Shown one piece after another: positions 3,381 through 64,000 of a stretch of DNA of 64,000 nucleotides. The DNA comes from Octopus vulgaris (taxonomy: Eukaryota): contig OX597832.1 of assembly GCA_951406725.2 (NCBI GenBank), forward strand, positions 14,136,001-14,200,000, given 5' to 3'. The notes beneath the pieces were generated by a model. That model made no database searches. It was not told the DNA's origin and was given only the letters and a program-made list of their open reading frames with translations. Made by a program: the position numbers and the translations under genes. How positions within the stretch are numbered: position 1 is the stretch's first letter; each line of letters opens with the position of its first letter.

Positions 3381-5910
3381 GATATTGATATACAAAGCAC
3401 CTGAACAACTAACTGAATCATCTGGAAGGCACTAGGGGAAGACAAGATCCCTAATCTCTGTTCAAAATATCTAACAGGAACACGTCAAACGCCAACTGAG
3501 AAATTTTATGAAATAAATTAAATAGCGGAGACTGAGACAATGCCTGAAGTGCTTACGGGGGGGGGGGGGATGCTATCCTAATTCCCAAATCCACTGTAAC
3601 AGTAAACCCACACAATTACAGGACCGATAACTTGTCACCCTACCACTTACAAGTTATTGCAATAATATTGCAGAAAATGTGCAAACATGTGGAAGAAAAC
3701 AACCAGTTTTCTGAAGAGCAGAAGGGAAGCTCCAAGGGCTTAATCAGATATACATATAAGCTGTTGATGAATAAATACATAAATAAAGGCAACCATAAAA
3801 AAAAGAATGGATCCTAGAATCACTAGCCACGAACAAGGTAACACCCACTATCATAAAATATATAAAACTTACCCTTCATAAATGGCAAAGAGTGCTATAT
3901 TCTGGAAGATCTGAAGCAAACAGTAGTAGGAAACAAAGCAAAAGTGGAAAGAAATGAAAATAGAAAAAAGTCAGTTCAGCCAAAACAAATTTTTGAAGCA
4001 AATCATAAGCCATTTTACGAACTAGATGGGCAAATACCCATACTTTTCTTCAAGAAGTAAGAAAAAATGCTAGATATATACAATCCTCTTAAGTGCGAAA
4101 TAGCCCGGCTATGGAAATATAAATAAGTGAATATGACACCAGATGCAGAGGAAAGCAAACCATTCTGGAGACGGATCTGGGACCATCCTATAGAGCATAA
4201 TCAAGCAGGGTGCTTGCATGAAATCTATGATAGTTTAAGAAATATAGAAGACCAAAGAGAACTAAATAATAGATGAAAATACAGCTAAGAAAATTCTCAA
4301 TTTGGAAGAGACCAGAACCGAGGTTCCAAGGTTATTGGATGAAGAAGTTAAGATGGTTCCTTGCAAGAAGGTGCAGTACCCAGCTGTATGACAAAGAGAA
4401 AGATCGTGAAATGGGGAATCCTGCATCCAACTTTAGACCAATAACATGCCTTGTGCTAATGTGGAAACTAATGTCAGGTGATTTTGCCGGTGAACTATAC
4501 AGAAAGTAGGAAAAAAGTCGGCTGCTACATATTGAACGGAAAGGGTGCTGGAAAAGGAGCAGTGGAACGAAGGATAAGTTCTTAGTTGTTATTCTAATTA
4601 TCAAGAACTGCAAGCGAAGATATACACACCTACGCATGCCATAGGTAAATATTGCAAAGAAAACGATATGATACCACACTCCTGGATAATAAGAACAATG
4701 GAAATATATGAAGTAGCAGAGTATATGAGTAACCTAACATGGAATAGCATGACATGCTGGAAAACGGAATTGACATCCTGAAATAAGTACTAGGTGAGGT
4801 GAATATCAAGAGTGGAATCCTTCAGTGGGAGTGTGTGTCCCACTGATATTCGTGCTAGGATATATTCGTGATATTCATGATGAAAATACTACAGAAAAAA
4901 AAACTGGCGTATGATCTTGGAAGCAGTAAATAAAAACTAGACCACTTGCTGTTCATGGGAAACCTGAAGCTATTCACAAAAGACTAAGGCAAAACTGGAC
5001 AACCAAGTCCAATGATAATAAGAAGGAGTTTGGACAATCAAAATGTCCTCCGATATGGATGAGACAAAGAAAGCTTGCCAGGACAGAAAGCATATGTTTG
5101 CCAAGTGGGTAAATGATGACGGCAATTGAACCTCAATCCAGTTATAAATACCTGGGAATCCACGAACTTGATGGTCCATCCACGAATTTGATGGTCAACT
5201 TTATGAATGAATGTAACTGCTGTGTCGAATCTTCAATAGAGTGGATTAAATCATTGCCCATATTACGAACGAATGCCCTAGTCTTGCTCCAAACCACTAC
5301 ACGTTGTGACGACACGACCAGACAAGCAAAGTGCTCCATTGGAAACTGCGAACTGTTGAGTCTAGACAGAGGCAAGGCGGAGGACTAGCACCAATCGCAG
5401 AGAACGGCATTGTCGTACACTAGCAAAATCCTCTGGGATTTCCTCATCCAAACAGGTGTTAGAGCATAACAGAGCGGTCCTACTGTTGGAGCACCAGGTA
5501 CCCCTCATAAACTATATAGTTGATGCTGTATTTCACGTTCACCCACGAATAGTCAAGAAAGAAGACAAAAAGATACATAGATGCAATACTCTTAAGTACG
5601 AAATACCACGGCTATGGAACAAAAAAGAAAGTGAAGATAGCGCTAATTATTGTTGGGTCCTTCGGAACAGTATTAGAAGGCATCAAGTGGAATATAAAGA
5701 AAATTAGAAAAGAGTTCCCAGTAGAACTGTTACAAAAGTTTTGCCCCCTCGACACGGCCAGAATAATTAGCAAAGTACTAGATAACAGAAAAGAACGAGT
5801 ATCATGGTACCGTACGCTGTAGGGAGTACGCCCACTACGCAAACAAGACACCAGGAGATTCAACAAGACCTGTGATAAAGAGAAAAATAATAACAGTAAT
5901 AATAATAATG
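3381..5910 (+). mobile_element. Decayed, mosaic R4/Dong-clade non-LTR retrotransposon (RT + REL endonuclease)
   Basis: RT motifs NPASNFRPITCLVLMWKL, KGCWKRSSGTKDK, DHLLFMGNLKLF, YKYLGIHE; REL region KILWDFLIQT..EHNR, LKYEIPRLW, IIVGSFGTV, LLQKFCPLDTARIISKVL; short (AAT) tail at ~5886-5909. Many stops and frameshifts. Confidence 0.85.
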
Positions 5911-7649: not shown

Positions 7650-7945
7650 AGGCACAGGCGTGGATGCGTGTTATGTTTCTTACGTACATAATTCCGGGTT
7701 CAGTTCTACTGCGTTGTTCCATGGGCTAGTGCCTTCTCGACGGACCGAAGTTATGTGAGTGGATTTCGTAGACAGAAACTGAAAGAAACCCGTCTGTATT
7801 TCTCCCCTACCACTGCTTGAGAACTGGTGTTTGTGTGTTTTCGCCAGTGTAACTTTGTGGTTCCGCAAAAGAGCTCGATAGATTAAGAACAAGGCTTTAA
7901 AGAAATTAGAATTGTGGTGGATACATTCGAATAAATATTGCTTAG
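7650..7945 (+). mobile_element. tRNA-derived SINE, family B (CORE-like), degenerate
   Basis: ttccgggttcagttctactgcg...gtgagtggatttcgtagacagaaactgaaagaaacccgtc matches the reverse complement of 38693-39135. Confidence 0.75.
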
Positions 7946-19492: not shown

Positions 19493-19886
19493 TATGTATA
19501 TAATTTCAACAACATTGAGGAACGGCCCCGATAGGCCATTCGACCCACTAGAAAGAGCAGCCAAGACTCAAACCGCTAAATAGCAGTAATTCAGAAATTA
19601 AAGGAAAATTTAAAAACATTTACCCTATTTATCTTTAGACAATGCATTGTTTCGACGTCCTTTATGGCAAACCAATTCTTTATGGCAAACTAATTTAATT
19701 AGGCTGGTTTGCCATAAAGAACGTCGAAACAATGCATTGTCTAAAGATAAATAGGGTAAATGTTTTTTAATTTTCCTTTAATTTCTGAATTACTACGATT
19801 TAGCGGTTTGAGTCTTGGCTGCTCTTTCTAGTGGGTCGAATGGCCTATCGGGGCCGTTCCTCAATGTTGTTGAAATTATATACATA
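19493..19886. repeat. Foldback inverted repeat: 182-bp arms, 30-bp loop
   Basis: 19493-19674 is the reverse complement of 19705-19886, with about 4 mismatches by eye. Confidence 0.97.
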
Positions 19887-21672: not shown

Positions 21673-21761
<89 letters not shown>

Positions 21762-21762
21762 T

Positions 21763-21951
21763 AGGGAGAGTTTACGAAAAAAACAAAAGACGAAGACAGA
21801 TGGTGTACAAAACATTCAGATGTATTAGTATAACACTCAGGAATACGAAAAAGTATTTTACGTTTCGATCCTACGCTCTTCTTCATAAAGGGACACAGAA
21901 AAAACAAGGAGAGAAAAAATGTGTATAGTGGCTAACGATCTATCATGGCGA
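21763..21951 (-). mobile_element. ~190-bp non-coding element with a degenerate minimal hammerhead (Penelope pLTR/retrozyme-like), inside (TA)n
   Basis: Homologous to 62283-62490; the reverse strand of 21853-21891 reads cttt-ATGAAGA-agagc-gtag-gatc-GAAACGTA-aaatac. Confidence 0.7.
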
Positions 21952-21956
21952 TATAA

Positions 21957-22003
<47 letters not shown>

Positions 22004-22219
22004 TGAAGAAAAAGAGTGAGATAGAGAGAGAGAAAAGCTTATACATTATAACCCACATATATATCGCTAAAACTTTGAATGATATTTTGAGAAATGGAGA
22101 GATATTTTGTATACCTAAATATAGTATAATGCTATGTAATAGCTTTCCTCTTCCTCCACTTCGACCTTGTCCTCTCCCTCATCATTGTTATTAATGCTGT
22201 CCTCATTGCCTCAACGATG

Positions 22220-30685: not shown

Positions 30686-31128
30686 TAGATATACATGTAT
30701 ACACAAACACACCCCTCTATATATATAGATATACATGTATGCACACACGCACCCCTCTATATATATAGATATACATGTATGCACAAACACACCCCTCTCT
30801 ATATATAGATATACTTGTATGCACAAACACACCCCTCTATATATATATAGATATACATGTATGCACAAACACACCCCTCTATATATAGATATACATGTAT
30901 GCACAAACACACTCCTCTATATATATAGATATACATGTATGCACAAACACACCCCTCTCTATGTATAGATATACATTTATGCACAAACACACCCCTCTAT
31001 ATATATAGATATACATGTATGCACAAACACACCCCTCTCTATATATAGATATACATGTGTGCACAAACACACCCCTCTATATATATATAGATATACATGT
31101 ATACACAAACACACCCTCTATATATACA
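30686..31128 (+). repeat. Minisatellite, ~40-bp unit x ~11
   Basis: Unit tagatatacatgtatgcacaaacacacccctctatatata, with variable CT/TA counts. Confidence 0.95.
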
Positions 31129-37928: not shown

Positions 37929-38258
37929 CCCACTTCGGTCATGAATGACCATGGGATTGCACCTAGAAAGTTACCCTCCCAGGCATAAGTCCGGGCAAGG
38001 TTGTTTATGGAAGACCAGCAGTCGCCCATGCATATCGGCCTCCACTCTCCGCGCCGCCAGTGTTATCCAAGAGAAAGGCAAAGGCCCATACAGCTTGGCA
38101 CCTGTGACGTCGCAACTCATTTCTACAGCTGAGTGAACTGGAGTAACGTGAAATAAAGTATCTTGCTCAAGGACACAACACGCAGCCCGGTCCGGGATCC
38201 GAACTCACAACCTCACGATCGTAAGCTCGACGCTCTAACCACTGAGCCATGCACCTCC
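37929..38258 (-). mobile_element. SINE family C (tRNA head + V-domain-like), copy 1
   Basis: Reverse strand: tggctcagtggttagagc (A box), gagttcggatccc (B box), gtgtccttgagcaagatactt (V-domain-like). Confidence 0.88.
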
Positions 38259-38262
38259 ACTT

Positions 38263-38576
38263 CCCCTTCGGTCACGACACAGACCATGAGATTGCACCTA
38301 GAAAGTTACCATCCCAGGCACAAGTCCGCACAAGGTTGTTTATGGAAGACCAGCAGTCGCCCATGCATACCAGCCTCCCCTCTCCACGCCACCAGTGTTA
38401 TCCAAGGGAAGAGCAAGGACCGATACAGCTTGGCACCAGTGACGTCACAACTCATTTCTAAAGCTGAGTGAACTGGAGCAACATGGGATAAAGTGTCTTG
38501 CTCAAGAACACAATACGCAGCACGGTCCGGGATTCGAGCTCACAACCTCATGATCGTAAGCTCGACGCTCTAACCA
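38263..38576 (-). mobile_element. SINE family C, tandem copy 2 (slightly 5'-truncated)
   Basis: Direct repeat of 37929-38245 with scattered substitutions. Confidence 0.88.
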
Positions 38577-62282: not shown

Positions 62283-62490
62283 CGGGAAGCTTTATGAAAA
62301 TAAACAAAAGACAAGGCAGTTGGAATACAAACAAACAATTGTATTAGTATGGCGCTCAGGAATATAGATAAAACAAGTCTTTTACGTTTCGAGCCTACGC
62401 TCTTCAACAGAAAGATACACAGAAAAGAAACACGGAGAGAAAAAAGGAGAGAAAAAAATGCGTGCAGAGGCTAGCGAATCAACATGGCGA
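62283..62490 (-). mobile_element. ~200-bp non-coding element with a minimal hammerhead (Penelope pLTR/retrozyme-like)
   Basis: The reverse strand of 62377-62415 reads tcttt-CTGTTGA-a-gagc(gtag)gctc-GAAACGTA-aaaga; homologous to 21763-21951. Confidence 0.75.
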
Positions 62491-62880
62491 AACACAATCA
62501 AGGCACTCCGAAATTCTTCGTCTTCTTCCCCCCCTTCTCCTCCTCATCCTCATTCTTCTTCTTCTTCTTCTTCTTCTTCTTCTTCTTCTTCTTCTTCTTC
62601 TTCTTCTTCTTCTTCTTCCCTACCAAGAATTCCCAACGACTTCGACGCCACAAGAGTAAACAAGAGAGACAGAGAAAGGCGGCAACAAGGAACGTGCCAC
62701 TTATATTTTAACACTATACAAATATTCTTTTTTAAAAACCTTCCTTTTAATTTTTCTAAATTTAATTATTTAATTGTTACAGTTGTAAAAGTCTCAGTAA
62801 CTGAAACTGCTACTGAAATGTTCTTTATGAAATTATTTTAGCATTTTCTATCCTGACTTGTTTTTCATATATATCAACTC

Positions 62881-63339: not shown

Positions 63340-64000
63340 TTGGTTGGCAACTAAGTTCCCCCTGATTTTTTAATTTCATTTTGTTCAATTATTCAATAAC
63401 GTATTCACCCTTGTTTACAATTTCTCCCCAACGTTCAACAAGATTTTCAATACCTTGTTGGTAGAAATCACCCGATTTCGACTCGAAAAATTGATCCAAC
63501 CAGGCTCTGAATTCTGCATCAGTAGTGAACGAAACTACGCACATATTATTTGAAAGAGATCGAAAGAGGTGGAAATCCGTTGGTGCCAAATCAGGAGAGT
63601 ACGACGGGTGCGGAAGCACTTTCCCGCCATGCGTTTGAATTGCTTTCTTGGTCATATTGGCGATATGAGAGTAGGCGTTGTCGTGCATCAAAGGAACTCC
63701 ATGCTGCCGATCAGGCCTTTTATCTTAAATAGCCGTGTTGAATCGTTCCATCTGTTGAACACAGAGTTCCGTGTTGAACTTTTGGTTCCTTTGAAGCAAT
63801 TTGTTATGGATAATCTCTTCCTAGTCCCATCATGCGAACAACATCGTTTTACGTGGATGAAAATCTTGCATCACGCACGGTGTCGCTTGTGTACCTTGGC
63901 TAAGACATTCGTTACGCTGATTCATATTGATGTACAGGCACTATTTGTCATCGCCAGTAACGATTGTGCCCATGAGGTAGGCGGTGACGATCAAGCAAAC
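63340..64000 (-). mobile_element. Mariner (DD34D) transposon 3' half with terminal inverted repeat
   Basis: IVTGDDK, HDNAYSH, LPHPSYSPDLAPTDFHLFRSL, GIENLVERW; TIR ttggttggcaactaagt preceded by TA at 63338-63339; runs off the window. Confidence 0.93.

What the first reader, a model, noticed from the sequence alone, without database searches (positions are those of the whole stretch)
21763..21951. Short hammerhead-bearing element family: copy 1, inside (TA)n
Seen: a 190-bp non-coding element homologous end to end with 62283-62490. Its core reads ATGAAGA and the other reads CTGTTGA, so the consensus is canonical CTGANGA-a-gagc(gtag)gctc-GAAAC-GTA, with stem I cttt/aaag and an ACGT palindrome as stem III. 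Known: such minimal type-I hammerheads occur in Penelope pLTRs and retrozymes and are thought to cleave as dimers. Inference: a non-autonomous, ribozyme-processed retroposon family mobilised by PLEs, possibly uncharacterised in this lineage.
Basis: partly seen in the sequence, partly recalled or inferred. Interest (0 to 1): 0.75.

Follow-up and report, generated by a model that had tools for sequence, protein, structure and literature searches.

The report
Penelope strong-stop copies, self-locked hammerhead
This 190-base repeat is a damaged end piece of a Penelope-type jumping gene whose family carries more than 15,000 copies of a hammerhead self-cutting-RNA motif with one normally fixed core letter changed, a change predicted to weaken cutting, and many of the short copies are likely DNA copies of just the first ~200 letters of the element's uncut messenger RNA.

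Summary
(1) The family core is not canonical: CUG-U-NGA has 15,730 exact genomic matches, CUG-A-NGA 180. Copy 1's A is a private mutation, one of four lesions in its motif. (2) It is not a separate non-autonomous family: longer copies run into an RT + C-terminal GIY-YIG ORF, and one locus shows pLTR-ORF-pLTR, so it is the end of a Neptune/Nematis-type Penelope-like element. Of 93 copies chosen by 3' end alone, 36 begin within 21 nt of an initiator-like TCAG and 1 at the cleavage site. A non-templated G precedes the initiator A in 33 of 55 informative junctions (7% expected), the mark a copied cap would leave. Best reading: reverse transcription primes on (TA)n inside the RNA, copies through the uncut hammerhead and stops at the capped 5' end. 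U6 is predicted to pair the core shut. A sister family (11,856 matches) keeps A6, mostly has U4C and shows one compensatory stem I change. Cleavage is untested. The scan noted A6U and strong-stop copies before in other genomes.

The parts
21763..21951 (-). Copy 1: solo ~190-bp end (pLTR segment) of a Penelope-like element, subfamily 1 (family core CTGTAGA); 5' end about 2 nt short of the inferred transcription start, 3' end at the family's fixed ...CTCTCCC|TATA boundary
   Evidence: 92-95% identity to the listed best genomic copies; ORF-bearing copies of this subfamily (L272, L274, L277, L278, L279)
21932..21946 (-). Four-codon upstream ORF (ATG...TAG) just inside the 5' end; same position and length in subfamily 2
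   Evidence: sequence; function not tested
21887..21890 (-). Hammerhead stem I, 5' strand (CTTT)
21880..21886 (-). Core strand 3-9, ATGAAGA in this copy; subfamily consensus CTGTAGA (U6 variant), so C3A and U6A are private changes
21867..21879 (-). Extra A after A9 and stem II GAGC(GTAG)GATC; family GAGC(GTAG)GCTC; one mismatch in this copy
21855..21866 (-). GAAACGTA (ACGT palindrome; predicted cleavage between 21859 and 21858) and stem I 3' strand AAAT (family AAAG)
21677..21763 (.). (TA)n array at the element's 3' end (insertion target)
21951..22004 (.). (TA)n-rich array at the element's 5' end
62283..62490 (-). Copy 2: solo end of subfamily 2; complete family-type motif at 62379-62414 with core CTGTTGA (62404-62410)
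   Evidence: 95-96% identical to both pLTRs of the full-length locus L121

Best explanation
The segment is the 3' end (pLTR) of an RT + GIY-YIG Penelope-like element whose family carries a U6-variant minimal hammerhead motif, and the ~190-bp solo form is likely a strong-stop cDNA copied from an internal priming site back to the capped start of uncleaved RNA. Steps: (1) Inferred: transcription starts at the A of an initiator-like TCAG(T/AT) in the pLTR. (2) Inferred, by analogy with PMC11167929: the element's endonuclease nicks (TA)n and reverse transcription starts inside the RNA, 85-100 nt downstream of the hammerhead, where the element's own sequence continues TATATAT (shown in L006 and L121) and could pair with the target. 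(3) Shown in the insertion record: cDNA passes through the cleavage site; about 4 in 10 copies stop near the initiator, often with an extra G; about 2 in 10 continue into 3' UTR and ORF. Those longer copies need a read-through or tandem template or a template jump (inferred). (4) Predicted: A6U weakens the core and lets U4-G5-U6 pair with A-C-G of GAAACG, so the motif cuts slowly or not at all, which suits a template that must be copied uncut. Copy 1 itself is a dead copy.
For: PLE link: upstream extensions encode RT (Pfam RVT_1 E 2e-7, above cutoff), a DKG motif, a C-x4-C-x2-C linker and a C-terminal YIGQTGR. L121 is pLTR-5'UTR-ORF-3'UTR-pLTR-(TA)n with a 4.24-kb period. Subfamily-1 ends sit behind ORF pieces in L272, L274, L277, L278, L279. 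Inverted partial copies, typical of PLEs, occur in L006, L029 and L122. Core: 15,730 U6 vs 180 A6 vs 422 C6/G6; on a flank-only tree the A6 copies are scattered among U6 copies. Strong stop: 36 of 93 5' ends fall in -16..+4 around the uATG against 37 over +5..+182 (8-fold per base, p 1e-16); 1 of 93 at the cleavage site. Cap mark: base before the initiator A behind TATAT is C25/G10/A9/T1 (subfamily 2, 45 of 45) and C65/G23/A7/T5 (subfamily 1, first 100 of 200); G is 7% of non-C background; G occurs at 2 of 21 other TA-flanked junctions (Fisher p 7e-5). Lock: P(U6:A15.1 pair) is 0.5-1.0 in all 12 natural U6 motifs and 0.0 in all 9 natural A6 motifs.
Against: No intact full-length ORF among the 14 long loci examined (longest open frames 693 and 697 codons), so present-day autonomy is inferred. 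No RNA 5' ends were seen; only contigs of uncertain RNA status were available. C, the templated base, is still the commonest junction base (90 of 145), so the stop is a cluster and not one base; microhomology with (TA)n inflates the -6 and 0 positions. G over T alone is only weakly significant (p 0.035 and 0.015). The 93-copy sample is mostly subfamily 2 and relatives from the first 25 Mb of C1, because the pattern excludes most subfamily-1 ends. N7 takes all four bases and H17 is A or U between subfamilies while the rest of the core stays fixed, which argues that the motif is still under some selection. The open-core fold is also rarely the best fold for A6 copies (p 0.001-0.21), so the lock prediction is relative.
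Confidence: 0.72

Rival explanations
1. Non-autonomous ribozyme-processed retroposon or retrozyme: a ~190-nt RNA is cut out by the hammerhead, circularised and reinserted by PLE proteins.
For: Sharp ends and high copy number. A few close head-to-tail pairs exist (L024, L003). Retrozymes derive from pLTRs (10.64898/2026.07.22.740005).
Against: The hammerhead lies mid-element and the ends do not match the cleavage site (1 of 93). No tandem array of the unit was seen in the loci held. The same sequence, 95-96% identical, ends ORF-bearing copies. The core is non-canonical. A capped start is implied.
Confidence: 0.08
2. U6 is a working natural variant: the motif still cleaves as a dimer or with the element's protein, perhaps at a late or regulated step, and the genome records only uncut templates.
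For: Only tolerated positions (N7, H17) differ between subfamily majorities, and stems I and II and the ACGU palindrome are kept across subfamilies whose flanks differ by about 16%. Natural A6C hammerheads are slow but active (PMC3088659, PMC7151607). The Anolis PLE hammerhead cleaves only with protein (PMC11167929).
Against: Changes at position 6 give low activity (PMC3088659 section 8). U6 is predicted to pair the core shut. There is no cleavage footprint in the insertions. Conservation could reflect protein binding, and most copies compared were selected by core-containing queries.
Confidence: 0.35
3. The sharp 5' boundary marks a 3' splice site (TGAC, pyrimidine tract, CAG) or a reverse-transcription pause with microhomology-driven resolution, not the transcript start.
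For: The upstream sequence looks like an acceptor. 13 of 93 copies begin exactly after CAG in subfamily 2, and copy 1 does so too. Penelope pLTRs can hold introns (PMC2377424).
Against: Many copies keep AG or CAG, and no shared upstream exon follows; (TA)n abuts directly. The extra G sits before AG, not after it. The sister family stops at a different initiator-like TCAAT/ATGTGACC with no CAG acceptor (about 5 of 12 loci).
Confidence: 0.15

Closest known systems
Minimal type I hammerheads in pLTRs of metazoan PLEs (Cervera and de la Pena 2014, PMC4209133; read: main text parts 1-2 of 4, supplement parts 1-2 of 3)
   Same: Type I, 4-bp stems, extra nucleotide between 9 and 10.1, G10.1-C11.1, palindromic ACGU, mostly single dispersed 3' ends of truncated PLEs. 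The Acropora digitifera Neptune motif in their Fig. S3 has the same layout (CUGACGA-A, 4-bp stem II with 4-nt loop, CGUC).
   Different: All 56 motifs in Fig. S3 have A6 (their descriptor required it); this family has U6 fixed across every subfamily.
Neptune/Nematis EN+ Penelope-like elements (Craig et al. 2021, PMC8557442; passages read)
   Same: RT with DKG, CX2-5CxxC linker, C-terminal GIY-YIG, partial tandems, inverted 5' copies, microsatellite targeting, heavy 5' truncation.
   Different: Non-canonical core. 5' truncation is not random but piles up at the inferred start. Neptune versus Nematis was not resolved by a tree.
Poseidon of Anolis carolinensis in vitro (Frangieh et al. 2024, PMC11167929; parts 1-2 of 4 read)
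   Same: Internal initiation downstream of the hammerhead, AT-rich target, uncleaved RNA as the template, hammerhead activity not needed for insertion.
   Different: There the priming site is not homologous to the target and lies in the ORF. Here it lies in a long 5' UTR, about 580 nt before the ORF ATG, at a UA repeat that could pair with (TA)n (inferred).
Animal non-LTR retrozymes (PMC7229834, passages; 10.64898/2026.07.22.740005, parts 1-2 of 5)
   Same: Short, non-coding, type I hammerhead, pLTR-related.
   Different: Retrozymes are tandem units with a canonical motif and circular RNAs. These copies are solo ends contiguous with an ORF in longer copies.
Natural core variants A6C and U4C (PMC3088659 section 8 and passages; PMC7151607 passages)
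   Same: Single changes in the CUGA strand that lower but need not abolish cleavage.
   Different: A6U was not among the variants in the passages read. Here it is fixed in a high-copy retroelement.

Membership tests
EN+ Penelope-like element | RT ORF with C-terminal GIY-YIG contiguous with the repeat | tested here: met
   RVT_1 above cutoff; GIY-YIG only E 0.008, below cutoff; 67 homologs with RT, some with PF01541
EN+ Penelope-like element | Partial-tandem pLTR-ORF-pLTR and inverted 5' copies | tested here: met
   L121, L122; L006, L029
EN+ Penelope-like element | Intact autonomous ORF | tested here: inconclusive
   0 of 14 long loci intact; the genome was not searched exhaustively
Neptune (vs Nematis) clade | CX2-5CxxC linker before the EN; DKG motif | tested here: met
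   CSRPRCRTC and ADKGG; shared by Neptune and Nematis per PMC8557442
Neptune (vs Nematis) clade | RT phylogeny with named references | not tested
   no clade-labelled reference proteins were returned
Minimal PLE hammerhead | Core CUGANGA | tested here: not met
   U6 in 15,730 vs A6 in 180
Minimal PLE hammerhead | GAAA, NUH, extra nt after A9, G10.1-C11.1, palindromic 15.2-16.2 | tested here: met
   (H17: A148, T30, G3 of 181)
Minimal PLE hammerhead | Stem covariation | tested here: inconclusive
   One compensatory change, stem I C-G (155 of 181 main) to G-C (14 of 17 sister); a single event, 32 of 500 shuffles as high; stem II invariant
Minimal PLE hammerhead | Self-cleavage as a dimer | not testable with these tools
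   needs a bench assay
Non-LTR retrozyme | Tandem units each with a hammerhead, no ORF-bearing form | tested here: not met
   solo ends and ORF-linked copies; only occasional pairs
Non-LTR retrozyme | Circular monomer RNA | not testable with these tools
   only contigs were available

The most novel reading that the evidence does not exclude
Penelope-like elements make a capped strong-stop cDNA, as retroviruses do, and integrate it as solo pLTRs. Because the template must be copied through the hammerhead, selection detunes the ribozyme. In this genome two sister families with over 27,000 exact motif copies did so independently: one by A6U, which locks the core by pairing, the other by U4C. The insertion junctions would then give a genome-scale in vivo map of the transcript start, priming site and cleavage state of a PLE RNA.
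Probability: 0.35. Interest if true: 0.72.

Novelty: new variant of a known kind. Interest (0 to 1): 0.5.

Why it matters
What PLE hammerheads do in vivo, and how pLTRs are regenerated, are open questions (PMC8557442, PMC11167929, PMC2377424). This family has amplified through all its subfamilies with a non-canonical core, its cDNA reads through the cut site, and its junctions carry a cap-like G. That supports 'uncut, capped template; cleavage slow or dispensable' and makes it testable with a natural U6/A6 pair. It also shows that CUGANGA-based searches miss very large hammerhead-derived families. The locus itself is a dead copy.

Tried and rejected
Rfam: no hammerhead match for either copy. 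The window scan listed only microsatellite-driven miRNA-type hits in the 150 shown of 323. Whole-element folding is unremarkable (z 0.54 and 0.37). Sequencing runs: no RNA holder listed. Contigs of four runs guessed to be RNA cover the stretch and span the pLTR-to-5'UTR junction, but show no ends and no GT-AG joint; no evidence on expression either way. An ancestral A6 subfamily inside the main family was considered and rejected, since A6 copies are scattered on the tree (108 of 208 sequences used, young subfamilies thinned, no support values read). The subfamily clustering included loci selected for A6, so its cluster 27 majority (CTGAGGA) is a selection artefact and was not used. One search merged identical young copies and was replaced, from whose 99 rows 6 duplicate views of the same sites were removed by hand; 7 of the 100 listed sites were not fetched. 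One search had a one-letter pattern slip (0 hits; corrected). One search had stem I off by one column (corrected). Literature: 'hammerhead'+'A6U' gave no hammerhead A6U paper (the one hit read was a twister position). A strong-stop/cap search for PLEs listed nothing on this (listing only). Lunse et al. 2017 (PMC5785218), the paper most likely to list PLE core variants, and Hammann et al. 2012 were not held, so A6U may be in print. Repbase and Dfam could not be checked, and bioRxiv supplements are closed. A curated octopus repeat annotation lists 30 recently active Penelope families and has no occurrence of 'ribozyme' (PMC13282606, passages). That this genome is octopus-like is a guess from its size and from scan notes, not a test.

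Full report
Observation. The segment 21763-21951 lies between two (TA)n arrays and aligns end to end with 62283-62490. Read on the minus strand, both contain stem I - core - extra A - stem II (GAGC/GCTC, loop GTAG) - GAAACGTA - stem I, the layout of the minimal type I hammerheads of Penelope-like elements (PLEs; PMC4209133). Copy 1 is damaged: C3 is A, position 6 is A, stem II has a mismatch and the 3' strand of stem I is AAAT. Rfam does not detect either copy.

Family and core. DNA searches gave 3,187 and 1,300 first-look candidates for the two copies, with best hits at 92-95% and 97-98% identity. The copies belong to different subfamilies with cores CTGTAGA and CTGTTGA. With the rest of the motif held exact, position 6 is T in 15,730 places, A in 180 and C or G in 422 (87 C and 13 G in the first 100). 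On a tree of flanks only, the A6 copies fall singly among U6 copies of all subfamilies, so they are sporadic mutations. Among 181 held copies N7 takes all four bases (cores CTGTTGA 90, CTGTAGA 51, CTGTCGA 22, CTGTGGA 9) and H17 is A or T, the two positions a hammerhead tolerates (established knowledge).

It is the end of a PLE. Three of the 30 copy-1 loci and five of the 30 copy-2 loci extend upstream into shared sequence. Searching with that sequence gave loci that run into RT and GIY-YIG coding sequence. L121 (G000:C19:917000-926500) holds a truncated upstream copy ending at 3563, a 5' UTR, an ORF from 4142 to about 7115 broken by stops and frameshifts, a 3' UTR and a second end at 7801 followed by (TA)n. 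Window copy 2 is 95-96% identical to both ends. Subfamily-1 ends sit behind the same ORF in L272, L274, L277, L278 and L279. The protein has RVT_1 (E 2e-7), ADKGG, a C-x4-C-x2-C linker and a C-terminal YIGQTGR. The linker marks Neptune and Nematis elements (PMC8557442), and the Acropora Neptune hammerhead has the same layout (PMC4209133 Fig. S3). None of 14 long loci had an intact ORF.

Ends. The 3' end is fixed and followed by a TA run in 91 of 99 rows (duplicates included). A 3'-end pattern occurs 10,355 times. Two held copies continue into the element's own downstream sequence, which begins TATATAT (L006, L121), so the template carries a UA run at the point where copying starts. I fetched 93 of the first 100 sites (chosen by 3' end only, mostly subfamily 2 and relatives, all on C1) and mapped their 5' ends (six duplicate views removed). 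36 begin between -16 and +4 of the upstream ATG, 37 are spread over the next 178 nt, 2 end near -53 and 18 run beyond -170. That is an 8-fold excess per base (p 1e-16). One of 93 begins at the predicted cleavage site. The peak coincides with TCAGT or TCAGAT, which resembles an initiator (consensus recalled; a TCACT initiator-like motif is noted in a rotifer pLTR, PMC3846280).

Cap mark. Where TATAT lies one base before the initiator A, that base is C25, G10, A9, T1 in subfamily 2 (all 45) and C65, G23, A7, T5 in subfamily 1 (first 100 of 200). C is templated. G belongs to neither template nor TA phase and makes up 7% of non-C bases after TATAT in held DNA, yet it is 33 of 55 here (p 3e-7 and 1e-18), against 2 of 21 at other TA-flanked junctions. 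An extra G is what reverse transcription of a 5' cap leaves (established knowledge, recalled). The templated-C majority shows that the start or the resolution is spread over a few bases, and AT microhomology blurs it.

Mechanism. The simplest reading follows the in vitro Poseidon work (PMC11167929), in which copying starts inside the RNA downstream of the hammerhead and uses uncleaved RNA. Here the nicked (TA)n likely primes at the UA run; cDNA passes the hammerhead and either aborts, stops at the capped 5' end (the ~190-210-bp solos, copy 1 among them), or continues into 3' UTR and ORF from a read-through or jumped template. Cleavage would cut this template in half. Changes at position 6 lower activity (A6C: PMC3088659, PMC7151607). 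Folding natural 35-36-nt motifs predicts that U6 pairs with A15.1 as part of a U4-G5-U6/A-C-G helix with probability 0.5-1.0 in 12 of 12 U6 motifs (near 1.0 with U7, the youngest subfamily) and 0.0 in 9 of 9 A6 motifs. This is a prediction on isolated monomers. I put slow or absent cleavage above a fully working variant, but conservation of everything else in the motif keeps residual or protein-assisted activity open.

Sister family. A homologous family (11,856 exact matches) keeps A6 in 98 of the first 100 but has C4 in 73. It has stem I GTTT/AAAC in place of CTTT/AAAG (14 of 17 against 155 of 181; one event, not significant by itself), ends in (TA)n, and in about 5 of 12 loci starts at its own TCAAT/ATGTGACC boundary. 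I did not link it to an ORF. It makes A6 the likely ancestral state and suggests a second, independent weakening of the same strand.

Novelty. The kind is known: solo truncated pLTR ends with minimal hammerheads were described in 2014. A fixed A6U core and cap-marked strong-stop solos were not found in the papers I could search, but the most relevant paper (Lunse et al. 2017) and Repbase were not available. This scan has noted an A6U family (e1-9559914) and strong-stop copies (e1-9854223, e1-9849966) in other genomes. I read those notes after reaching this reading, and they are not independent support. Verdict: new variant of a known kind, interest 0.5.

Noticed in passing
L260-L271, L092, L186, L203 (G000 pattern count 11,856): Sister family with core CCGACGA/CTGACGA (U4C in about three quarters), stem II loop TCC, stem I GTTT/AAAC, same (TA)n ends and a sharp 5' boundary; not linked to an ORF here.
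   Followed up: partly
L166:1350-1660 (G000:C2:178469456): Apparent chimera: sister-family 5' half joined at the hammerhead core to the main family's stem II and 3' half, suggesting recombination or template switching at the motif.
   Followed up: no
L034, L040, L162: A third dispersed family with a canonical core (CTGA(A/T)GA), stem I GACAC/GTGTT and stem II GGCTG/CAGCC; a fourth canonical motif occurs in L246.
   Followed up: no
window 21932-21946 and 62471-62485 (minus strand): Four-codon upstream ORF about 7-8 nt after the inferred start, with ATG and TAG kept in both subfamilies.
   Followed up: no
L121:3655-3670 and L006 downstream tail: GATACTTACC in the 5' UTR of both subfamilies reads as a consensus splice donor on the antisense strand.
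   Followed up: no
window 62830-62880 and L006:1170-1270: A ~45-bp sequence (AAGTCAGGATAGAAAATGCTAAAATA...) lies upstream of copy 2 and forms a palindrome next to the inverted pair in L006; it may be another repeat end or part of this element's biology.
   Followed up: no
window 21835-21842 and family-wide: A second GAGCG about 20 nt after the cleavage site could pair with the 3' strand of stem II (GCTC) and is kept in main and sister families; a possible alternative fold.
   Followed up: no
window 19493-19886: 182-bp inverted repeat, 98% complementary, with a 30-nt spacer.
   Followed up: no
window 37933-38576 and 30686-31126: 335-bp tandem duplication and an 11-copy 40-bp minisatellite.
   Followed up: no
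L031:230-600 (window about 63390-63760, minus strand): Sequence resembling a decayed mariner transposase (recalled motif, not tested); an RT-like 307-codon frame of another LINE follows the element in L121:8296-9216.
   Followed up: no
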